From the NCBI GenBank assembly GCA_023488435.1, contig JAMDCK010000059.1:9910-73909 (forward strand): DNA of 64,000 nucleotides, read 5' to 3'. Of this stretch, positions 39,822 to 49,424 are shown piece after piece. Each line of letters opens with the position of its first letter. The first letter of the stretch is position 1. The DNA is from Actinomycetota bacterium (lineage in GTDB: Bacteria > Actinomycetota > Coriobacteriia > Anaerosomatales > UBA912). Below the pieces are notes generated by a model. That model was given only the letters and a program-made list of their open reading frames with translations. It had not been told where the DNA came from and ran no database searches. Both the position numbers and the translations under genes were made by a program.

Positions 39822-41528
39822 GTGGCCGATAAGATTCTGATAGTCCACGAGGACATAAAGCTGATTGAGGATATCAAAGCCGGATTGGCAACCTCTGGGG
39901 CAGCCCTTGAGGTTGTCTCCGTTCTGTCAGGGCCCAGAGCCTTGGGCATAGTTGAGGCACAGAGACCCAAGTGCGTGCTGATCGACGCCGAACTTGAGGG
40001 AATGGATGGATTCGCCCTTACCAAACAGATCAAGGGAAGCGCCTACGCCGAAGCGCCAGTCATCGTTGTCAGTAAGCAGAGCAGCGAAGCCTCGGCCCTG
40101 ATGGCCAGACAGGCCGGAGCATCGGCGCATATGAGTTCGCAGGGTTCTGTAGACATGATCGTCGCTCGAATTATTGCCCTTGCGGGGACCCCGGCGGCAG
40201 CCATGTCTAACAGCACATCTCCGTCAGTCGTGACTGGCACACCACTCCCTGCTGACACCCCCGCTGCTGCCCCACACTCTGCCCCGGCTACTCAGGTGCG
40301 TGAACCGGCCTCGCTGAGTCCAAGTCCGTCACCGGCTCCTTCGGCACAGCCTTCCGCTGTCCCTCCAGCGGTCTCGCCGATACAGCCGGCTCCCGAAAGG
40401 AGCCCCGCGCCGGCTCCCGCTCCATCGCCCACTACGACCGCATCCCAGCCTGCAACAGACATTCCTCACGTTGACGACTTACTACGCCTGATGCTGGAAA
40501 GAAACGGATCCGACCTGCATGTCACCGTTGGAAGCCCCCCTGGTATCCGCATGCGGGGCGAGATCGTGCCTGTGGAGAACAGTAGGCCGCTTACGCCAAA
40601 AGACGTCCAGGCAATGATATTGAGCCTGTTATCAGAGGAGCAACGCAAGAAGTTCGACATGGAGCTCGAACTGGACTTTGCTTACAGTATCCCTGGTGTT
40701 TCTCGATTCAGAACCAATGTGTTCCAGCAAAGAAACTCTATCGGTGCTGTCTTCAGGGTGATTCCGCTATCCATACCTTCACTTGAGGACCTTGCGCTTC
40801 CTAAGGTAGCCAAGTTCCTTGCCGAGCGGCCCCGGGGATTGGTGCTCGTCACCGGTCCAACGGGCTCCGGAAAATCGACCACGCTTGCGGCCATGATTGA
40901 TCATATCAACGCAACCAGGCCTCTACACATCATCACCATGGAGGACCCAATCGAGTTCATGCACCGCAACAAGAGAGCATACGTCAATCAGCGCGAAATC
41001 GGATCGGACAGCCACTCCTTTACCGCAGCACTGAAGCGAGTCCTCCGACAGGACCCTGATGTGATCCTTGTTGGTGAGATGCGAGACCTCGAGACAATCG
41101 CCGCAGCGATAACCGCTGCTGAGACCGGACACCTGGTCCTTGCCACGCTTCACACAACCGGTGGTCCTGAGACGATCGACCGCATTATCGACGTCTTCCC
41201 GCCACACCAGCAGCAACAGGTTCGTATGCAGCTGTCCAATACTCTTGAAGGCGTCCTGTCTCAGGTTCTGTTGAGGCACACCGATGGTCGCAGCAGGGTC
41301 ATGGCGATGGAGATCATGCTAGGAATCCCTGCGATCCGAAATCTGATCCGTGAGGGCAAGACCCACCAGATGGCCACCATCATCCAGGGTGGCGGAGCAA
41401 TGGGCATGCAGACTTTGGATCAGAACCTCAAGTCTTTGCTTCAAAGCGGGAAAATCACCTTCGAGGAGGCAGTGGGTAAAGCTCAGAACCCGCGTGAACT
41501 CGCAGCGATGGTCGGTCGCAAGTTGTAG
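39822..41528 (+). CDS. pilT: Response-regulator receiver domain fused through a Pro/Ala/Ser-rich linker to a PilT-type type IV pilus retraction ATPase
   Basis: The REC domain spans about aa 1-120 (ILIVHED...VLIDAELEGMDG...VIVVSKQ). A low-complexity linker of about 90 aa occupies 40182..40461. The PilT core has GSDLHV, Walker A GPTGSGKST, Walker B ILVGEMRD and the His box LATLHT. GTG start. Confidence 0.85.
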   Translation: MADKILIVHEDIKLIEDIKAGLATSGAALEVVSVLSGPRALGIVEAQRPKCVLIDAELEGMDGFALTKQIKGSAYAEAPVIVVSKQSSEASALMARQAGASAHMSSQGSVDMIVARIIALAGTPAAAMSNSTSPSVVTGTPLPADTPAAAPHSAPATQVREPASLSPSPSPAPSAQPSAVPPAVSPIQPAPERSPAPAPAPSPTTTASQPATDIPHVDDLLRLMLERNGSDLHVTVGSPPGIRMRGEIVPVENSRPLTPKDVQAMILSLLSEEQRKKFDMELELDFAYSIPGVSRFRTNVFQQRNSIGAVFRVIPLSIPSLEDLALPKVAKFLAERPRGLVLVTGPTGSGKSTTLAAMIDHINATRPLHIITMEDPIEFMHRNKRAYVNQREIGSDSHSFTAALKRVLRQDPDVILVGEMRDLETIAAAITAAETGHLVLATLHTTGGPETIDRIIDVFPPHQQQQVRMQLSNTLEGVLSQVLLRHTDGRSRVMAMEIMLGIPAIRNLIREGKTHQMATIIQGGGAMGMQTLDQNLKSLLQSGKITFEEAVGKAQNPRELAAMVGRKL

Positions 41529-41589: not shown

Positions 41590-42039
41590 ATGGACTTCGT
41601 GAAGGTAAGGTGGACCGATAAGAGGCAGTTCGTCGCCTGGGATTCTCCTGGACATACGGTGGTGATGGATGCCACTCAAGAATTTGGCGGCGAAGGTGCG
41701 GGAATGCGACCTCTGCAGGTCCTATTGGCGGGACTCGCCGGCTGCAGTGGGATGGATGTCATATCGATCCTCGAGAAAAAGCGCCAACAGGTTTCTGGGC
41801 TCGAAGTCCATGTCAACGCCCGTCAGCGTGAGGACGATTTTCCTCGGATATACGAGTGGGTCGAGTTGGAGTTCCGCGTCACCGGAATCGATGTCTCCGA
41901 GGAAGCCGTACGGCGTGCGATTGAGCTCTCGATGGAGAAGTACTGTTCGGTTTCTGGGATGTTAGGCCCGCAAGTCTCGCTGGAGACTCGCTTCACGGTG
42001 TTGGATGCGGCGGAGAGTCCCATAGACACCGATGGGTGA
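41590..42039 (+). CDS. OsmC/Ohr-family thiol peroxidase-like protein
   Basis: 149 aa with the two conserved Cys contexts (LAGLAGCSGMD and MEKYCSVSGML). Confidence 0.8.
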   Translation: MDFVKVRWTDKRQFVAWDSPGHTVVMDATQEFGGEGAGMRPLQVLLAGLAGCSGMDVISILEKKRQQVSGLEVHVNARQREDDFPRIYEWVELEFRVTGIDVSEEAVRRAIELSMEKYCSVSGMLGPQVSLETRFTVLDAAESPIDTDG

Positions 42040-42763
42040 GGATTCCTCGGGTATCGCATCTTACTCGGCGGTCCTGATCCCGGTACACAACGAGGCAGCA
42101 ACGTTAGCGTTTGTGCTCGATTCGGTTCGCGGTCACTTCGGGGGACCGGTTCTCGTCATAGACGACGGCTCCACGGATAGCACTTCCCAGATTCTTTCGT
42201 GCTTCGAATGGGTCGATGTCATCCGTCACTCAAATAACCTGGGATACGGCAAGGCTCTGGCTACTGCTTTTGCCTGGGCGGCCGAGAAGGGTCTCGACTC
42301 AGTGGTTACCATGGATTGCGACGGGCAACACGAGCCCGCACGAATTCCAGAGTTCTTAGCTGAGCTGTCCCAGGGTGCCGACATCATCTCTGGTAGCAGG
42401 TATCTACCCGAGAGCGTGGCAACTGGAGAGGCCCCCACAAGCAGGCAAGAGATCAATGCGAAGGTCACAGCAGTCATAAACGATCGGACGGGCTGGAGCC
42501 TCTCGGATGCATTTTGCGGATTCAAGGCCTACAGGATGGCCTCGATAGCGGGTGTCGAGTGGCAGGAGTCTGGGTACGGTTTCCCGCTCGAACTCTGGGC
42601 CCGAGCATATGCTAGACATCTCAGCGTACGAGAGATGCCTGTTGCGCGGATATACTGTGATCGCACCCGTAGCTTCGGCGCCGTCCTTGATAATCCAGAG
42701 GTCCGATACGACTATTACATGCGTGTGTGGAATGCGACGCTTTCAGAGGAGGGCATCCAGTGA
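42032..42763 (+). CDS. GT2-family glycosyltransferase (Dpm1 / polyprenol-phosphate glycosyltransferase-like catalytic domain, no TM)
   Basis: VLIPVHNEAATL ... VIDDGSTDST ... NLGYGKALATAF ... VTMDCDGQHEP ... ISGSRY is a GT-A/GT2 signature. The start overlaps the OsmC gene by 8 nt. Confidence 0.8.
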   Translation: MGEDSSGIASYSAVLIPVHNEAATLAFVLDSVRGHFGGPVLVIDDGSTDSTSQILSCFEWVDVIRHSNNLGYGKALATAFAWAAEKGLDSVVTMDCDGQHEPARIPEFLAELSQGADIISGSRYLPESVATGEAPTSRQEINAKVTAVINDRTGWSLSDAFCGFKAYRMASIAGVEWQESGYGFPLELWARAYARHLSVREMPVARIYCDRTRSFGAVLDNPEVRYDYYMRVWNATLSEEGIQ

Positions 42764-43440
42764 GAAGAGTGGTTTGCATCGGAGCGCATCCCGATGACGT
42801 TGAGATCGGATTGGGCGGAACGATCGCCAGACTGGTCCAAGCGGGGACAAGCGTGACGATTGTCGATCTGACCGACGGCGAGCCCACCCCCTTCGGCACG
42901 CGAGAGATTCGAGCACGAGAAGCGGCTGAGGCTGCGGCAGTCCTAGGGGCAGAGCGAGTGACACTGAGTCTTCCCAACCGAGAGTTGGCGGATACCCCCG
43001 AGGCGCGCCGTGAGCTCGCCGAAGTTCTGAGGGACACACGGCCCGATGCTCTCTTCATCCCATATCCCGAGGACGCGCATCCGGATCACATCGCTGCTTC
43101 GCAGATTGCTCTTGCAGCTCGTTTCTGGTCGAAGCTAACCAAGACTGACATGCGCGGAGAGCCGCACTATCCGGCACGGGTGTATCGGCACATGGCAGTC
43201 CATCTGAAGATCATCAGGCCGCCGTCCTTCGTTCACGACATCACCGAACACCTTGATGTGAAGATGCGCGCTGTACGCTGCTACCGATCCCAGTTCGAAT
43301 CCAATCCAGCGAACAGGCACCTCATCGATGCGATTGAGGCTTCAACTCGGATGTGGGGTGGCACCATCGGAGCCGTGGCTGGTGAGCCGATATTCGCGCT
43401 AGAGACCCTCGGTGTATCCGATCTGGGTGCCCTGATATAG
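42760..43440 (+). CDS. LmbE / PIG-L family N-acetylglucosaminyl deacetylase
   Basis: From GTG 42760 the protein reads VRRVVCIGAHPDDVEIGLGGT (the PIG-L zinc-site motif AHPDD), and HPDH occurs later. GTGA overlap with the GT2 stop, with the SD GAGGAGGG upstream. Confidence 0.85.
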   Translation: MRRVVCIGAHPDDVEIGLGGTIARLVQAGTSVTIVDLTDGEPTPFGTREIRAREAAEAAAVLGAERVTLSLPNRELADTPEARRELAEVLRDTRPDALFIPYPEDAHPDHIAASQIALAARFWSKLTKTDMRGEPHYPARVYRHMAVHLKIIRPPSFVHDITEHLDVKMRAVRCYRSQFESNPANRHLIDAIEASTRMWGGTIGAVAGEPIFALETLGVSDLGALI

Positions 43441-43452
43441 GGAGGGGCCTCC

Positions 43453-45045
43453 ATGAGTGAGCGTCAAAGTGTCCGCCCAGGCCATTCATCGCTCATTGTC
43501 GAGCCACCGGTGACCGAGTGGCCCACAATCGCCGCCGAGAACAGCCGACTCCTCGCAGACGGCGAATGTGTGGTTGCGGGTCAGCCCTTGGATCGCCTAC
43601 GCGCCCTCGCTCGCCGAGAAGCGTTGGACCTTGCGCGAGCCTTCACCGCGCGCGCCGGGCTACCATCCGTCGCAGCGCACCACGAAAATCCCGAGGGCCC
43701 CTTGGTCGTCACTGGTCACCAGCCGATCCTGTGCAGCACTGGGGTCTGGTCGAAGTACTTCGCCCTATCGCACTTTGCGAAGCGCACCGGCGGCACTGGC
43801 ATCGACTTGGTCATCGATTCGGACCGAGCCGGACCCATCGCTGTCGACGTCCCATCGTTAGGCGGGCGGCCGAGTATCGAATCCGTCGTCCTGTCACCTG
43901 GTAATCCAAATGGGTACTTCGCTGCGGTTCCAACTCCCGCCCATGTACAGGTCGAATCCTTCGGCGCTGAGGTTCTTTCGGCTCTGGGAGAGCTGCCGCA
44001 CTCGGAAGCCCGGTTGAACTTCGAGGCCTTCCTATCGGCGCTTATGATCGCTTTACCACTTGCCGAAAACCTTGCGGAGTTGATGTCATTCACGAGACGC
44101 CACTTTGAGACGTCGGCCGGACTGAACTATCTTCAGCTACCGGTGACCGCGCTCTCGGAGACGCTTTCCTTCAGGAGCTTCGCGGCTGACATACTCACCC
44201 GAGCGGACGAGTTCGCCGCGGTGTACAACCAAGAGCTCGCGGTATTTCGCGGCACTCACAAGGTTCGCTCCGCCGCACAGCCAGTACCCGATCTTCGGCG
44301 AGATGAGAATGGGGTAGAGCTGCCGTTTTGGCTTCTGGTGGGCGGGGTGCGCCAACGCACGTTCGTCCGCCGGAGCGGGGGAGCGATCGAGCTTTTCACA
44401 CAGGAGGAGGGCGGCGCCCACGTGATGCCCATCGCTACCGATGTGCTCAAACTCCAACTGGAGCACGTGAAACTTGTGCCCAAAGCCCTCATCATCACCA
44501 TGTACACTCGTCTCCTCCTTGCCGACATGTTCATCCACGGCACCGGCGGTGCTCGCTACGACTCAGTGACTAATGCGATCATTCGGCGATTCTACGGAGT
44601 GGATTCACCGCACTTTGCTGTGACCAGCGTCCCCGCACCCTCGCCTTTCGTCTGTGGCGAGCCAGAACTGGAACAGAAGATCTCCGCTGCCGAAGACCGT
44701 CTGAAGACGCTAACGCGCCGTCCCGAGAGAGCGCTGTCCGCCATGCTCCTCGACCCCGATCACGTACCCGGGACCGCCGCATTGGAGCTGGTCAGCCAGA
44801 AACTCCGCATGGTTAGTGAGATAGCGAAGCCAGGTGCCGACAAGGCTTTGCTCGGGGAACGTATCCGTCACATAAATGAGCTACTCCGGGCGTCATTGCA
44901 AGATGAGGTAACCGCAGTCGAAGATCAGCTGGCTGGTCTTCGCGCAAGAGCGACGAAGGCAGCAATCCTCAGTGACCGGCGCTATCCGTACTGCTTCTTT
45001 GATCCCCGCGAGTACTCGCGAATGTTCGATAGAGCCGTGTTATGA
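43453..45045 (+). CDS. Hypothetical 530-aa protein with distant BshC-like features (putative cysteine-adding / ligase-like enzyme)
   Basis: By eye, three blocks line up with my recollection of Bacillus BshC. These are VVTGHQPILCSTGVWSKYFALSHFAKR (cf. VVGGQQAGLLTGPLYTIHK...AK), IDLVIDSD (cf. VAGEDHD) and PKALIITMYTRLLLADMFIHGTGGARYD (cf. NVVTRPL...FIAGPGEINY). The length and C-terminal coiled-coil-like tail are also similar. Not verified by any search. Confidence 0.4.
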   Translation: MSERQSVRPGHSSLIVEPPVTEWPTIAAENSRLLADGECVVAGQPLDRLRALARREALDLARAFTARAGLPSVAAHHENPEGPLVVTGHQPILCSTGVWSKYFALSHFAKRTGGTGIDLVIDSDRAGPIAVDVPSLGGRPSIESVVLSPGNPNGYFAAVPTPAHVQVESFGAEVLSALGELPHSEARLNFEAFLSALMIALPLAENLAELMSFTRRHFETSAGLNYLQLPVTALSETLSFRSFAADILTRADEFAAVYNQELAVFRGTHKVRSAAQPVPDLRRDENGVELPFWLLVGGVRQRTFVRRSGGAIELFTQEEGGAHVMPIATDVLKLQLEHVKLVPKALIITMYTRLLLADMFIHGTGGARYDSVTNAIIRRFYGVDSPHFAVTSVPAPSPFVCGEPELEQKISAAEDRLKTLTRRPERALSAMLLDPDHVPGTAALELVSQKLRMVSEIAKPGADKALLGERIRHINELLRASLQDEVTAVEDQLAGLRARATKAAILSDRRYPYCFFDPREYSRMFDRAVL

Positions 45046-45088
45046 TACTTCCGATCTTGGTCCGGACTATTGAATGGAGCTGATGTAG

Positions 45089-45262
45089 ATGGCGCTACCC
45101 GTGGTTGATGCGAGCCTATGTACCTCCTGTGGTATCTGTGTCGATGATTGCCCGATGGGCTGCTATGACATGGACGCGGTTGCAGTTCTGGCCCGCGAGG
45201 ATGACTGTACAGAATGTGGAATCTGCGTCGACGCTTGCCCAGCAGGCGCAATCTCCATGTAG
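45089..45262 (+). CDS. 2x[4Fe-4S] ferredoxin (57 aa)
   Basis: MALPVVDASLCTSCGICVDDCPMGCYDMDAVAVLAREDDCTECGICVDACPAGAISM contains two CxxCxxCxxxCP motifs. It is below the ORF track cut-off. Confidence 0.8.
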   Translation: MALPVVDASLCTSCGICVDDCPMGCYDMDAVAVLAREDDCTECGICVDACPAGAISM

Positions 45263-46919: not shown

Positions 46920-47045
46920 CCGGCCCGGATTCAAGCAGATGACTCCTGTGACTGCACCGACGAACTGACGGACACACCGCAACTAGAACGCACTCGATGA
47001 GTATGATACTCTGCGTGAGCGTTTCGCATCAATGAGCCCTCTTAG

Positions 47046-47121
47046 CTCAGCGGATAGAGCGTCTGCCTCCGGAGCAGAAGGCCGCAGGTTCGAGTCCTGC
47101 AGAGGGCACCATCGATTTCTC
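47046..47121 (+). tRNA. tRNA-Arg (CCG)
   Basis: GCCCTCTTAGCTCAGCGGATAGAGCGTCTGCCTCCGGAGCAGAAGGCCGCAGGTTCGAGTCCTGCAGAGGGCACCA folds as a cloverleaf with anticodon loop CTCCGGA and an encoded CCA. Confidence 0.92.
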
Positions 47122-47163: not shown

Positions 47164-49233
47164 TCAGTGACCTTCCGCTCGCTCCTTGTTGTACTTCTCA
47201 ATGATCTTGGATGCGATCTCGTGTGGGACCTGCTCATACGTGTCGACGGTGATCGAATACTGACCCGTACCGCTGGTGATCGACCTCAGTGTCTGCGAGT
47301 AGTGGACGACCTCGGCGTATGGAGCCTGCGCCTTGATCGCTTGGTAGCCGGGCCTTGGGGAGTCCATTCCCAAGATTCTTCCTCGGATAGAAGAGATGTC
47401 GCCCATCACCGCCCCTGAATACTCGTCGGGTACGGTTATGGTCATTGTCGCGATGGGCTCGAGCAACACCATGTCGGCCTTCGCGGCGGCGGCCCGGAAT
47501 CCGATGCGAGCGGCTGTGCGAAACGCCATCTCGTTCGAGTCGACGCTGTGATAGCTGCCGTCGAAGACTGCCACTTTGACATCGACCACGGGGTATCCAG
47601 CGAGCACCCCTTCGGCCATCGTCGATTGGACGCCCTTATCTACGGCTGGTATGAACTGCCGAGGAATTCGCCCGCCGACGATTTCGTCGATGAATTCGTA
47701 GCCCCCGCCGGGGTTGGGCTCGAGCCTGAGCCAGCAGTCAGCGAACTGTCCGGAGCCGCCGGTCTGCTTCTTGTGGCGGCCTTGGGCCTGGGAGGTCTTG
47801 AGGATCGTCTCTCTGTAGGGCAATCTGAGGTCGGCTACCTCCGCGTCAACATGGTATCTGTCATGGAGTCGACAAAGCAGTACATCGATCGCGGTTGCGC
47901 CAAGAGAATACATCACTGTCTGATGGGTCTCCTCGTCCCTGACAAGTGTGAGCGACGGATCTTCATCCGCGACCGCTCTCAAAGCGGTGCCGAGTTTGTC
48001 TTCGTCGGCTTTGGTTTTGGCGACAAGTGCCACTGGATACAGTGGGTCGGGGAGAGGCAGCGGGTTGAAGGCGATCGTGCCGGATAGAGACAGAGTGTCG
48101 TTGGTCCTGGTGTCAGAGAGCTTGGCTAGAACCGCGACATCGCCTGCGAACGCCGCATCAACATCCACGGTTTCCTTGCCGGTCATCCTGAATACGTGGG
48201 CGACGCGCTCCTTCTTGCCGGTTCTCGAGTTCAGCAACTCCATTCCAGGGACCAGCTTGCCCGAGACGATTTTGAGCAAAGAGAGGCGCCCCACGTAAGG
48301 GTCGGAGAGTGACTTGAACACATGAGCGGTGACTTCACCGTCCGCGCAGATAGGGATCTGCGCACCATCGGAAGTGTGTAGTGGTCCGTGTGCGGTGGGC
48401 TTGGGGAAGAACGTGACGATCTCATCCATCAAGTCCTCTATGCCTTGGAGGGTGATTGCAGAACCGATGAAGACAGGGATGAATATGCCCTTTGCGATCG
48501 CCTTGTCCAGTAGGCTCTCCAGCTCCTGTTGCGAGAGACGATCCCCCTCGAGGTACTTCTCCATGAGTTCGTCATCGGCTTCGGCTACGAGCTCGCACAG
48601 TGTGTCGCGGGCTGCCTCAGCGGCCTCGATATATTCGGCGGGGATGTCGGTGACTTCCTCGGCTTCGGCGGAGTGATGGTAGGACTTCATCCTTATGATA
48701 TCGATGACCCCATAGAATTCAGCTGCATGACCAATGGGTATCTGAACAGGACCGACACGGTGGCCGAACTTGGTCCTGATAGCGTCCATTGCTGAATCGA
48801 AGTCTGCGTTCTCCTTGTCCAGGCGGTTGATGAAGACCGCTTTGGCGATTCCCATATCTTCGGCTATCTGCCAGAGACGTTCGGTCTGGACTTGTGGCCC
48901 GGCGACCGCATCAACTACGAACAATGCCATTTCGGCGGCTTCTATGCCGGCAATCGCATCTCCGATGAAGTCCGCGTATCCCGGCGTGTCTATCACATTG
49001 ATCTTGATGCCTTTGTGCACCAGTTGGGCAAGCGAAAGGTTGATGGAAATCTTACGTTTGATCTCTTCGGCTTCGAAATCGAGACATGAGTTGCCGTCCG
49101 AGACGCTACCCAGTCGCTTCGTGGTTCCTGCGAGATGAAGCATGGCTTCTGCAAGAGAAGTCTTTCCTGCCCCCCCATGGCCAAGCAAGACAACATTTCG
49201 GATCATGTCGGTGTCTACCGCTTTCAACTGCAT
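47164..49233 (-). CDS. Elongation factor G paralog (EF-G2-like translational GTPase)
   Basis: 689 aa from ATG 49233. Motifs are G1 GHGGAGKTS, G3 DTPGYADF (Tyr where canonical EF-G has His) and G4 NRLD. The EF-G domains II-V layout is present (e.g. GRHKKQTGGSGQF). Confidence 0.8.
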   Translation of the reverse strand: MQLKAVDTDMIRNVVLLGHGGAGKTSLAEAMLHLAGTTKRLGSVSDGNSCLDFEAEEIKRKISINLSLAQLVHKGIKINVIDTPGYADFIGDAIAGIEAAEMALFVVDAVAGPQVQTERLWQIAEDMGIAKAVFINRLDKENADFDSAMDAIRTKFGHRVGPVQIPIGHAAEFYGVIDIIRMKSYHHSAEAEEVTDIPAEYIEAAEAARDTLCELVAEADDELMEKYLEGDRLSQQELESLLDKAIAKGIFIPVFIGSAITLQGIEDLMDEIVTFFPKPTAHGPLHTSDGAQIPICADGEVTAHVFKSLSDPYVGRLSLLKIVSGKLVPGMELLNSRTGKKERVAHVFRMTGKETVDVDAAFAGDVAVLAKLSDTRTNDTLSLSGTIAFNPLPLPDPLYPVALVAKTKADEDKLGTALRAVADEDPSLTLVRDEETHQTVMYSLGATAIDVLLCRLHDRYHVDAEVADLRLPYRETILKTSQAQGRHKKQTGGSGQFADCWLRLEPNPGGGYEFIDEIVGGRIPRQFIPAVDKGVQSTMAEGVLAGYPVVDVKVAVFDGSYHSVDSNEMAFRTAARIGFRAAAAKADMVLLEPIATMTITVPDEYSGAVMGDISSIRGRILGMDSPRPGYQAIKAQAPYAEVVHYSQTLRSITSGTGQYSITVDTYEQVPHEIASKIIEKYNKERAEGH

Positions 49234-49424
49234 CTCCTCCTCAGAGCGTAGTGGCGGCAAGCACGCCTTCGGCGAGCTTGCGGTCGACCGAAAACCGAAC
49301 AAAATGCAGACAACGTCAGCATACTCCTTATCTGAACAGGTTCACACTGTTAGAATGGCTCAAGTCCCCGCCTAGGCGTGGCCAGTGGTGTGGTGTTGAG
49401 TCGTAAGACGAAATCGGAGCAGAC

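What the first reader, a model, noticed from the sequence alone, without database searches (positions are those of the whole stretch)
41590..45262. Tightly coupled OsmC / GT2 / LmbE deacetylase / BshC-like / ferredoxin operon: candidate non-canonical low-molecular-weight thiol (or GlcN-conjugate) pathway
Five genes are packed with overlaps or very short gaps. OsmC and GT2 overlap by 8 nt, GT2 and the deacetylase share a GTGA overlap, the next gene follows after 12 nt, and the ferredoxin gene follows after 43 nt. The middle three genes reproduce the chemical logic of bacillithiol and mycothiol synthesis. That logic is a glycosyltransferase that installs GlcNAc, an LmbE/PIG-L family deacetylase (AHPDD motif seen), and then a large enzyme of about 530 aa. 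Three sequence blocks, the length and the coiled-coil tail of that enzyme resemble, by eye, the cysteine-adding enzyme BshC. Known pathways use GT4 enzymes (BshA/MshA), whereas here the transferase is a soluble Dpm1-like GT2, so the acceptor and product may differ from BSH or MSH. The flanking OsmC/Ohr-type thiol peroxidase and a small 2x[4Fe-4S] ferredoxin fit a thiol-redox function. An alternative reading is a polyprenol-phosphate-GlcNAc to GlcN envelope-glycolipid route, analogous to the PIG-A/PIG-L steps of GPI synthesis, with the 530-aa protein of unknown role. Either way I do not recognise this combination as a described system.
Basis: inference. Interest (0 to 1): 0.7.

Follow-up and report, generated by a model that had tools for sequence, protein, structure and literature searches.

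The report
Unrecognised bacillithiol-like pathway, widespread in bacteria
A tightly linked set of genes (a sugar transferase, a sugar deacetylase and a very distant, unannotated relative of the bacillithiol enzyme BshC) is conserved across several bacterial phyla, including ones with no known protective thiol, and probably makes an undescribed cysteine-glucosamine-type metabolite.

Summary
Five co-directional genes sit at the stated coordinates with the stated overlaps and gaps.

The 530-aa protein matches no Pfam or NCBIfam model, including BshC. Two independent high-confidence AlphaFold models (window protein and a 29%-identical planctomycete homologue) both have B. subtilis BshC (4WBD) as top structural match (E 2.6e-14 and 1.5e-12, full length). 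Unfiltered HMM searches give weak colinear hits to real BshC sequences.

The deacetylase passes the BshB1 equivalog cutoff. However, it lacks BshB's predicted malate-contacting Arg109 in all 47 module copies examined.

The GT2 is a soluble Dpm1/PpgS-like enzyme with a remodelled acceptor site.

The family is large (at least 590 reference genomes, at least 1,364 clusters, all "hypothetical"). The orthologous GT2 lies directly upstream in 75 of 81 testable loci. The deacetylase lies between them in 47 of 53 non-planctomycete loci. OsmC and ferredoxin accompany the module only in the Coriobacteriia clade.

Best reading: a non-canonical BSH/MSH-type pathway giving an aminoacyl (probably cysteinyl)-GlcN conjugate with a different aglycone or linkage. 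The product is untested.

The parts
41590..42039 (+). OsmC-family protein (149 aa). It is an accessory gene, linked to the module only in the Coriobacteriia clade.
   Evidence: PF02566 1.2e-18. Best NCBIfam match is the YhfA-like PRK10738 at 101.7 bits, below its 138-bit cutoff; Ohr and OsmC subfamily models score only about 17 bits. Cys52 and Cys119 are present in the sequence. It overlaps GT2 by 8 nt. It is present upstream in 24 of 25 Coriobacteriia-clade loci and in 0 of 62 others.
42032..42763 (+). Soluble GT2 glycosyltransferase (243 aa) of the Dpm1/PpgS/ArnC type. Predicted first step: transfer of a HexNAc to an anionic acceptor.
   Evidence: PF00535 7.7e-25. Best NCBIfam matches are PpgS (83.9 bits, cutoff 370) and Dol-P-hexose transferase. 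Best PDB sequence matches are PfDPMS 5MLZ at 1.5e-11 and ArnC at about 1e-9. No transmembrane-grade hydrophobic segment. R123 and R138 align with PfDPMS Arg117 and Arg131; N142 replaces Ser135, and Asn occupies that position in 64 of 64 module GT2s read. An ortholog lies directly upstream of the 530-aa gene in 75 of 87 loci.
42760..43440 (+). LmbE/PIG-L zinc deacetylase (226 aa), BshB1-like. Predicted second step: removal of the N-acetyl group to free the sugar 2-amine.
   Evidence: PF02585 4.1e-29. TIGR04001 BshB1 scores 186.4 bits against a 182.5 cutoff. Best PDB matches are TT1542 1.8e-37, BshB1 6P2T 5e-37 and BC1534 2IXD 4e-33. H10, D13, H110 and R51 align with the BshB zinc ligands and Arg53. 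BshB Arg109 is Ala106 here and is never Arg in 47 module copies. GTG start with SD sequence and GTGA overlap.
43453..45045 (+). 530-aa protein of an unannotated family with the BshC fold (class-I-aaRS-like Rossmann core plus C-terminal long helices). Predicted third step: ligation of an amino acid, probably cysteine, to the freed amine.
   Evidence: No Pfam or NCBIfam hit. AF2 pLDDT 93.2, pTM 0.91. Foldseek top hit 4WBD BshC at E 2.6e-14, TM 0.55, 580 columns, followed by class I LysRS. This was replicated with a planctomycete homologue, E 1.5e-12. Unfiltered HMM hits to real BshC: E 1.7e-5 for X 56-241 against BshC 58-253, and 1.2e-3 for the C-terminal parts. Invariant residues include G88, H89, Q90, K101, D122, D124, R266, H362, G363, G365, G366, Y369 and R509.
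45089..45262 (+). 57-aa 2x[4Fe-4S] ferredoxin. It is an accessory gene, linked to the module only in the Coriobacteriia clade.
   Evidence: Fer4 family hits with two CxxCxxCxxxCP motifs. Present downstream in 24 of 25 Coriobacteriia-clade loci and 0 of 62 others.

Best explanation
The functional unit is GT2 -> LmbE deacetylase -> 530-aa BshC-fold enzyme. OsmC and ferredoxin are lineage-specific neighbours.

Step 1 (inferred): the soluble GT2, from a glycosyltransferase family that inverts the anomeric configuration, transfers a HexNAc, most likely GlcNAc from UDP-GlcNAc, to an anionic acceptor. Because GT2 enzymes invert, the product would be beta-linked, unlike the alpha-linked products of BshA and MshA.

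Step 2 (family assignment shown, substrate inferred): the BshB1-like zinc deacetylase removes the acetyl group and exposes the 2-amine.

Step 3 (fold shown, chemistry inferred): the BshC-fold enzyme acylates that amine with an amino acid, most likely cysteine. Its core is the class-I aminoacyl-tRNA-synthetase/HUP type that normally activates carboxylates.

The predicted product is a bacillithiol/mycothiol-type low-molecular-weight thiol, Cys-GlcN-aglycone. Its aglycone and/or linkage differ from bacillithiol. In some Planctomycetota a GNAT gene directly downstream may N-acetylate it, as MshD does in mycothiol synthesis.
For: Fold: BshC 4WBD is the top full-length PDB match for two independent high-confidence models.

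Weak colinear sequence signal to genuine BshC:
- hmmsearch --max gives E 1.7e-5 for the N-terminal half and 1.2e-3 for the C-terminal part.
- hhalign gives 238 colinear columns at E 0.028, pairing GHQ with GQQ, K101 with K105, and D122-x-D124 with D134-H-D136.

Deacetylase: it passes the BshB1 equivalog cutoff here and in other phyla. Its closest solved relatives are true BshBs.

Gene linkage:
- GT2 directly upstream in 75 of 81 testable loci.
- Deacetylase in between in 47 of 53 non-planctomycete loci spanning Coriobacteriia, Armatimonadota, Nitrospinota, Nitrospirae, Firmicutes MAGs and others.

Location: all three proteins lack membrane segments, and no flippase or GT-C gene recurs nearby.

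Possible fourth step: an Eis-type GNAT lies immediately downstream in 9 planctomycete loci, and a small GNAT in L005.

Against: - No BshC HMM matches, and profile-profile probability is below 2%. Any inference of shared substrate therefore rests on fold and gene context.
- BshC's own reaction has never been reconstituted (PMC5790435), so 'works like BshC' is itself incompletely defined.
- The amino acid added is unknown.
- Planctomycetota loci have no adjacent deacetylase (0 of 34).
- The GT2's closest relatives are all polyprenyl-phosphate transferases.
- OsmC and ferredoxin linkage is confined to one clade.
- The absence of canonical thiol pathways in the same genomes was not tested.
Confidence: 0.5

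Rival explanations
1. Lipid-linked envelope route. The GT2 makes polyprenyl-phosphate-HexNAc at the inner face of the membrane. The LmbE enzyme deacetylates it to polyprenyl-P-HexN. The 530-aa enzyme modifies (aminoacylates) this lipid-linked sugar or has another role. The sugar is later flipped and transferred to an envelope polymer. This would be analogous to PpgS, ArnC/ArnD or PIG-A/PIG-L logic.
For: - The closest sequence relatives of the GT2 are PpgS, Dol-P-hexose transferase, AglJ, ArnC and PfDPMS.
- Two of the three PfDPMS acceptor-phosphate ligands are conserved, as R123 and R138.
- PfDPMS lacking its transmembrane domain still binds membrane and is active (PMC5526996). Missing TM helices therefore do not exclude a lipid acceptor.
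Against: - Scores are far below every polyprenyl-phosphate glycosyltransferase equivalog cutoff (84 against 370 bits).
- The Ser135 equivalent is Asn in all 64 module GT2s read, and the A-loop RxxGxSK is replaced by R[ST]FGxxL.
- No GT-C, flippase or small membrane partner recurs in 87 loci.
- In L006 a separate paralogous GT2 sits next to a weakly PMT_2-like protein (E 0.0097, below cutoff), while the module GT2 pairs with the BshC-fold protein.
- The deacetylase is BshB1-like, and BshB1 acts on a soluble substrate.
Confidence: 0.2
2. The three-step chemistry is the same, but the product is not a thiol. The BshC-fold enzyme ligates a different amino acid or carboxylate to GlcN-aglycone. The product would be a compatible solute, cofactor precursor, signalling molecule or other GlcN conjugate.
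For: - Nothing in the sequence identifies cysteine as the substrate.
- The family has no invariant cysteine or CysRS/MshC-type zinc-site pattern among its invariant residues.
- Divergence from BshC is extreme, at 11-13% identity.
- Thiol-related neighbours (OsmC) are clade-specific.
Against: - The only characterised member of this fold family is genetically required for adding cysteine to GlcN-malate (PMC5790435).
- The module occurs in lineages lacking any predicted thiol pathway (PMC6282198).
- The downstream GNAT in Planctomycetota parallels MshD.
Confidence: 0.2
3. The module makes ordinary bacillithiol. The GT2 is simply a non-orthologous replacement of BshA, and the 530-aa protein is a highly divergent BshC.
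For: The deacetylases pass the BshB1 equivalog cutoff at 186-210 bits against 182.5. The zinc ligands and Arg53 are conserved.
Against: - BshB Arg109, predicted to contact GlcNAc-malate (PMC4101496), is Ala, Thr or Ser in all 47 module deacetylases.
- GT2 enzymes invert configuration (established knowledge of the CAZy family). They would give the beta anomer, not the alpha-linked GlcNAc-malate made by the GT4 BshA.
- The acceptor site retains phosphate-type ligands.
Confidence: 0.07

Closest known systems
Bacillithiol biosynthesis (BshA GT4, BshB1/B2 LmbE deacetylase, BshC)
   Same: It has the same three-step logic: glycosyltransferase, LmbE deacetylase, then a roughly 530-aa BshC-fold enzyme. 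The deacetylase passes the BshB1 model. The third enzyme shares BshC's fold, length and helical C-terminal region, and colinear motifs.
   Different: The glycosyltransferase is a GT2 (inverting, Dpm1/PpgS-like), not a retaining GT4. The third enzyme matches no BshC HMM and is 11-13% identical. It has H89 where BshC has Q91, and H362 where BshC has A349. The deacetylase lacks BshB's Arg109. In canonical systems bshC is usually unlinked to bshA and bshB (PMC5790435), whereas here the genes are translationally coupled.
Mycothiol biosynthesis (MshA GT4, MshB, MshC, MshD)
   Same: GlcNAc transfer, LmbE deacetylation, then cysteine ligation by a class-I-aaRS-fold enzyme. A GNAT lies downstream in some Planctomycetota, as MshD acts last in mycothiol synthesis (the MshD role is from general knowledge).
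   Different: The MshB and Mca models score far below cutoff (44.5 against 224 bits). The ligase is BshC-like; MshC and CysRS do not appear among the top 50 fold matches. The GT is GT2, not GT4.
Polyprenyl-phosphate HexNAc/HexN routes (PpgS/Rv3631, ArnC-ArnD, DPMS; PIG-A/PIG-L in GPI synthesis)
   Same: The GT2 catalytic domain is closest to these enzymes. A deacetylase acts on the GT product.
   Different: There is no membrane anchor, no partner membrane protein, no GT-C and no flippase nearby. The acceptor site is remodelled. The deacetylase is BshB1-type rather than ArnD/YdjC-type (the latter from general knowledge). The third enzyme has no counterpart in those routes.
Class I aminoacyl-tRNA synthetases (class I LysRS, TyrRS, TrpRS, GluRS) and the HUP superfamily
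   Same: Second-tier fold matches: 1IRX class I LysRS at E 2.8e-7 and 7.7e-7. A strand followed by 'TGHQP' occupies the position of the HIGH signature (DSSP; the positional equivalence is inference).
   Different: There is no HIGH or KMSKS signature, no anticodon-binding domain match and no aaRS HMM hit.

Membership tests
BshC (PF10079 / PF24850 / TIGR03998) | Sequence match to the family HMMs above threshold | tested here: not met
   No Pfam or NCBIfam hit at E<=0.1 for the window protein. None of 40 family members hits PF10079 at E<=1. A family profile searched against PDB does not find 4WBD. hhalign against BshC alignments gives probability 0.4-1.8%. A BshC HMM finds nothing in the window or the loci.
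BshC (PF10079 / PF24850 / TIGR03998) | BshC architecture: Rossmann core with CP insertions plus a C-terminal helical coiled-coil region, about 540 aa | tested here: met
   4WBD is the top Foldseek hit over the full length for two independent models (E 2.6e-14 with TM 0.55; E 1.5e-12 with TM 0.49). Long C-terminal helices at 406-506. The architecture description comes from PMC4360819.
BshC (PF10079 / PF24850 / TIGR03998) | Conserved BshC motifs (GGQQAG...YxxxK; EDHD; TRPLMQE; FIAGPGExxYW; QERxWN) | tested here: inconclusive
   Positional counterparts exist: TGHQP...WxK, DxD, TRxLxxD, FIHGxGGxxYD and RxYPF. They align colinearly, but residues differ at key positions (H for Q, H for A, G for E), and the statistics are weak (E 0.028; 1.7e-5 among 142 targets).
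BshC (PF10079 / PF24850 / TIGR03998) | Required in vivo for adding cysteine to GlcN-malate | not testable with these tools
   Needs genetics and metabolite analysis. Even for BshC the reaction has not been reconstituted in vitro (PMC5790435).
BshB1 (TIGR04001) / LmbE-PIG-L superfamily | HMM score above the equivalog cutoff | tested here: met
   186.4 bits against a 182.5 cutoff. Module copies in L003 and L071 score 210.1 and 201.4. PF02585 4.1e-29.
BshB1 (TIGR04001) / LmbE-PIG-L superfamily | HxDD + H zinc site and catalytic Asp | tested here: met
   H10, D12, D13 and H110 align with BshB His12, Asp14, Asp15 and His113.
BshB1 (TIGR04001) / LmbE-PIG-L superfamily | Predicted GlcNAc-malate contacts Arg53 and Arg109 | tested here: not met
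   R51 aligns with Arg53 and is conserved. Arg109 corresponds to Ala106. That position is Ala in 45, Thr in 1 and Ser in 1 of 47 module deacetylases, and never Arg. All three solved BshBs have Arg there.
BshA / MshA (GT4 retaining glycosyltransferases) | GT4 (GT-B) domain | tested here: not met
   The transferase hits only GT2 (GT-A) models. No GT4 gene is adjacent in the window, and none recurs in the related loci.
Polyprenyl-phosphate glycosyltransferases (DPMS / PpgS / ArnC / GtrB) | GT2 catalytic domain with DxDxQH and family-level HMM match | tested here: inconclusive
   DCDGQH is present, and the best hits are PpgS, Dol-P-hexose transferase, ArnC and PfDPMS. All are far below the equivalog cutoffs (83.9 against 370; 39.8 against 529).
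Polyprenyl-phosphate glycosyltransferases (DPMS / PpgS / ArnC / GtrB) | Acceptor-phosphate ligands (PfDPMS Arg117, Arg131, Ser135) and A-loop RxxGxSK | tested here: inconclusive
   R123 and R138 are conserved. Ser135 is replaced by Asn142, and by Asn in 64 of 64 module GT2s read. The A-loop is R[ST]FGxxL.
Polyprenyl-phosphate glycosyltransferases (DPMS / PpgS / ArnC / GtrB) | Membrane association: TM helices, or a partnered membrane protein, GT-C or flippase | tested here: not met
   Maximum 19-residue hydropathy is 1.33. No recurrent membrane partner in 87 loci. Peripheral binding through amphipathic helices was not tested.
OsmC/Ohr thiol peroxidases | OsmC domain with two conserved cysteines; subfamily HMM match | tested here: inconclusive
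   PF02566 is met, and Cys52 and Cys119 are present. The Ohr, OsmC and SACOL1771 subfamily models score 14-18 bits against cutoffs of 86-166. The best match is the YhfA-like PRK10738, below its cutoff.

The most novel reading that the evidence does not exclude
The GT2-(LmbE)-BshC-fold module makes a previously undescribed low-molecular-weight thiol: a cysteinyl-glucosamine conjugate with a beta linkage and/or a non-malate, possibly phosphate-bearing, aglycone. This would be the missing cytoplasmic redox buffer of Planctomycetota (including anammox relatives), Nitrospinota, Armatimonadota and anaerobic Coriobacteriia. The 530-aa family is a sister family of BshC that keeps a 'GH' at the HIGH-motif position. 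It could therefore be the tractable enzyme that finally reveals how BshC-type ligases activate their substrate.
Probability: 0.35. Interest if true: 0.85.

Novelty: new variant of a known kind. Interest (0 to 1): 0.74.

Why it matters
Low-molecular-weight thiols such as glutathione, mycothiol and bacillithiol underpin redox homeostasis, detoxification and metal handling. Several major bacterial lineages, Planctomycetes explicitly among them, have no documented or predicted thiol (PMC6282198). The censuses that reached this conclusion used BLAST with BshA, BshB and BshC queries at E<=1e-20, which cannot detect this family.

The module gives a concrete set of two or three genes to test. It is present in at least 590 reference genomes.

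BshC's reaction has also resisted in vitro reconstitution since the enzyme was identified. A distant sister family with different active-site residues, always encoded next to its pathway partners, offers a new route to that problem.

There is an annotation consequence as well. Deacetylases of this module will be named 'BshB1' by automated pipelines in genomes that probably do not make bacillithiol.

Tried and rejected
- Pfam and NCBIfam scans of the 530-aa protein and of 40 family members: no BshC hit and nothing else meaningful, only coiled-coil noise.
- phmmer and family-profile searches against PDB sequences: only designed helical proteins and coiled coils at E>0.1.
- hhalign of the family against a single BshC, a 21-sequence BshC alignment and a 142-sequence BshC alignment: not significant. 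A forced global alignment was meaningless. The C-terminal local alignment picked FIHGTG against FIAGPG but was not significant.
- Neighbour-gene clustering across 87 loci for a universal fourth component (flippase, GT-C, disulfide reductase, cysteine metabolism): none found. Only clade-specific synteny appeared: Ccm genes in one group (with a thioredoxin-fold gene seen in L003), a GNAT in some Planctomycetota, and OsmC/Fdx in Coriobacteriia.
- The six loci with no GT2 upstream were checked for an alternative GT such as a GT4. Only unrelated genes were found.
- The 489-aa gene downstream in L088 is not the GNAT. It is a Cys-rich repeat protein.
- The promoter and terminator scan of the operon was uninformative.
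- No cultured carrier strain was identified. All named hits are MAGs or metagenome contigs.
- I considered that the adjacency might be chance or mere conserved synteny. I rejected this for GT2, LmbE and the 530-aa gene because the linkage spans phyla. I accepted it as possible for OsmC and ferredoxin.

Full report
OBSERVATION. OsmC and GT2 overlap by 8 nt. The deacetylase most plausibly starts at the GTG at 42760, which gives the GTGA overlap with the GT2 stop. A GAGGAGG Shine-Dalgarno sequence lies about 8 nt upstream of that GTG. An independent gene call on the same sequence in a public assembly also gives 226 aa with a 4-nt overlap. The other gaps are 12 nt and 43 nt. Pfam confirms OsmC (1.2e-18), GT2 (7.7e-25), PIG-L (4.1e-29) and a double Fer4 protein. 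The window comes from an Actinomycetota MAG (protein name 'M1617_08275'), and its closest relatives are annotated as Coriobacteriia. A NiFe hydrogenase and Rnf genes nearby suggest an anaerobe.

THE 530-aa PROTEIN. It has no hit in Pfam or NCBIfam, and none of 40 homologues hits the BshC model. Neither the sequence nor a family profile finds BshC among PDB sequences. The AlphaFold model built on a 40-sequence alignment is confident (pLDDT 93.2, pTM 0.91). Its best PDB match by a wide margin is B. subtilis BshC, 4WBD (E 2.6e-14, probability 1.0, TM 0.55, 580 aligned columns, 13% identity). Class I LysRS follows (2.8e-7), and then weak TyrRS, TrpRS and GluRS matches. I repeated the test with a planctomycete homologue only 29% identical to the window protein, using a separate 50-sequence alignment (pLDDT 93.7). 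The ranking was the same: 4WBD at 1.5e-12, then class I LysRS.

SEQUENCE-LEVEL COMPARISON WITH BshC. I verified the B. subtilis BshC sequence against 4WBD chain A and collected 150 diverse BshC representatives. Profile-profile comparison stays non-significant. With 117 family sequences against 142 BshC sequences it does produce a 238-column colinear alignment (X 53-318 against BshC 52-308, pairwise E 0.028). That alignment pairs TGHQP with GGQQAG, K101 with K105, and D122-x-D124 with D134-H-D136. With HMMER's filters off, the family HMM hits genuine BshC sequences:
- P0285 at E 1.7e-5 among 142 targets, X 56-241 against BshC 58-253.
- P0225 at 1.2e-3 over the C-terminal 100 residues, pairing 'ReYpfcLf' with 'ERVYSFFLY'.

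The protein is a very distant homologue of BshC and forms a separate, unannotated family. It is not a member of PF10079 or TIGR03998.

THE OTHER TWO CORE ENZYMES. The deacetylase scores 186.4 bits on the BshB1 equivalog model against a cutoff of 182.5. Module copies from other phyla score 201-210. Its nearest solved relatives are Thermus TT1542, B. subtilis BshB1 (6P2T) and B. cereus BC1534. The zinc ligands and Arg53 of BshB (PMC4101496) are conserved as H10, D13, H110 and R51. Arg109, the other predicted GlcNAc-malate contact, is Ala106 here. That position is Ala, Thr or Ser, and never Arg, in all 47 module deacetylases examined.

The GT2 is closest to PpgS, Dol-P-hexose transferases, AglJ, ArnC and PfDPMS, but scores far below their cutoffs. 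It has no transmembrane segment. Against PfDPMS (PMC5526996), it keeps two of the three acceptor-phosphate ligands (R123, R138). Ser135 is replaced by Asn142, and Asn occupies that position in 64 of 64 module GT2s read. The A-loop RxxGxSK is replaced by R[ST]FGxxL. I infer that the acceptor is still anionic but is probably not the usual polyprenyl phosphate.

DISTRIBUTION AND LINKAGE. The family is large. Every one is 'hypothetical' with no Pfam domain. Carriers include Coriobacteriia and other Actinomycetota MAGs, Armatimonadota, Nitrospinota, Nitrospirae, Firmicutes and Limnochordales MAGs, 'Fervidifonticultor', and many Planctomycetota (Pirellulaceae, Gemmata, Schlesneria, Rubripirellula, Brocadia). 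Across 87 loci:
- The orthologous GT2 (E<1e-40 to the window GT2) lies directly upstream on the same strand in 75. Six of the remaining 12 are truncated by contig ends.
- The deacetylase lies between GT2 and the 530-aa gene in 47 of 53 non-planctomycete loci and in 0 of 34 planctomycete loci.
- OsmC and ferredoxin flank the module in 24 of 25 Coriobacteriia-clade loci and nowhere else.

In that clade the wider neighbourhood (Crp, cytochrome b5-like, PilT-like ATPase, PlsY, DagK, EF-G-like) is also syntenic. OsmC and ferredoxin linkage therefore carries little weight. No flippase, GT-C or polyprenyl-related gene recurs. In L006 a paralogous GT2 sits beside a weakly PMT_2-like protein (E 0.0097, below cutoff) a few kb from the GT2 plus 530-aa pair, which illustrates the contrast. 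An Eis-type GNAT (Acetyltransf_9 + SCP2_2) lies immediately downstream of the 530-aa gene in nine planctomycete loci, and a small GNAT does so in L005. This resembles MshD as a last step, but that is an analogy only.

MECHANISM. What is shown:
- The three protein families and folds.
- Their translationally coupled arrangement.
- The cross-phylum conservation of the linkage.
- Module-wide active-site substitutions relative to BshB and DPMS.

What is inferred:
- The GT2 transfers GlcNAc from UDP-GlcNAc to an anionic small acceptor. Because CAZy family GT2 inverts configuration (established knowledge), the product would be beta-linked, unlike BshA and MshA products.
- The deacetylase frees the amine.
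- The BshC-fold enzyme forms an amide with an amino acid, most likely cysteine. Its HUP/class-I-aaRS-type core normally activates carboxylates.

The 'TGH' at the strand-to-helix junction occupies the position of the HIGH signature and keeps a His where BshC has Gln. This is inference from the DSSP pattern and the alignment. It suggests nucleotide-dependent activation may be more canonical here than in BshC. Overall I put about 0.5 on a BSH/MSH-type thiol with a different aglycone or linkage.

RIVALS.
- A polyprenyl-phosphate-linked glycolipid route (about 0.2). It is favoured by the GT2's relatives, and disfavoured by the remodelled acceptor site, the soluble BshB1-like partner and the lack of any membrane partner.
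- The same chemistry with a non-thiol product (about 0.2), because nothing identifies the amino acid.
- Ordinary bacillithiol made with a replacement GT (about 0.07). It is disfavoured by the Arg109 loss and the inverting GT.

COMPARISON WITH WHAT IS KNOWN. It works like BSH or MSH biosynthesis, but it is not a member of either pathway as currently defined. The GT is from a different family and fold class. The ligase fails every BshC HMM. The deacetylase passes the BshB1 model but fails one of its predicted substrate contacts. I found no description of the module in ten full-text searches. [quoted passage not shown] The 2025 census again relied on BLAST with BshA, BshB and BshC. Reviews stress that BshC's reaction is still not reconstituted.

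LIMITS. The following could not be done with these tools:
- Residue-level structural superposition, because no coordinates are returned.
- Whole-genome checks for canonical thiol genes in carrier genomes.
- Identification of a cultured carrier.
- Any chemistry.

VERDICT. I rate it a new variant of a known kind of pathway, built around a large unannotated sister family of BshC. Interest is high because it makes an open question, which thiol these phyla use, directly testable.

Noticed in passing
L040, L046, L052, L055, L060, L062, L064, L066, L086 (e.g. L046:7488-8924); L005:9756-10328: An Eis-type GNAT acetyltransferase (Acetyltransf_9 + SCP2_2, about 480 aa) lies immediately downstream of the BshC-fold gene in nine Planctomycetota loci, and a 190-aa GNAT does so in L005. 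It may be an MshD-like final N-acetylation step.
   Followed up: partly
L006:12843-15081: About 3 kb downstream of the GT2 plus BshC-fold pair there is a second, paralogous GT2 (E 2e-15 to the window GT2), followed by a 491-aa protein that matches PMT_2 (a GT-C family) only weakly, E 0.0097 and below the Pfam cutoff. If real, this is the classic polyprenyl-phosphate-sugar synthase plus GT-C pairing, side by side with the module.
   Followed up: partly
L088:11703-13172: On a 9.33-Mb planctomycete metagenome contig, the gene after the BshC-fold gene encodes a 489-aa protein with striking cysteine-rich repeats (KCACGSKD..., CCK/CCG runs). It has no Pfam or NCBIfam hit and is unrelated to the GNAT.
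   Followed up: partly
window 39822-41528 (+): Directly upstream of the operon is a PilT/T2SSE-type ATPase fused to an N-terminal response-regulator receiver through a long Pro/Ala/Ser-rich linker. The gene is syntenic with the module in the Coriobacteriia-clade loci examined with Pfam annotation (L001, L007, L089), and an ortholog cluster is present in 17 loci.
   Followed up: no
window 47036-47111 (+); L001:11868-17239: A tRNA-Arg(CCG) lies between the DagK-like gene and the EF-G-like gene. In the relative L001, the corresponding position carries a phage-type integrase and a run of small unannotated genes, which suggests an integrated element next to the module's neighbourhood.
   Followed up: no
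L003:9528-14982 and L029, L030, L034, L036, L037, L038, L041, L072: In L003 the module sits next to cytochrome c maturation genes (CcmF, CcmE, CcmH) and a thioredoxin-fold AhpC-TSA/Redoxin gene. CcmF-like and CcmE-like gene clusters also recur near the module in several other unclassified and Armatimonadota MAGs, and MerR/HTH_17 regulator genes recur upstream in six loci. This may be coincidental synteny.
   Followed up: no
window 42760-43440 and module deacetylases in L003, L071: These deacetylases pass NCBI's BshB1 equivalog cutoff and so may be auto-annotated as 'bacillithiol biosynthesis deacetylase BshB1'. No BshA- or BshC-type gene lies next to them in these loci. This is a possible systematic mis-annotation.
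   Followed up: partly
window 47164-49302 (-): A 712-aa EF-G-like GTPase paralogue lies downstream and is syntenic across the Coriobacteriia clade. Its ORF begins with TTG and has an N-terminal extension relative to the gene call in L089 (689 aa).
   Followed up: no
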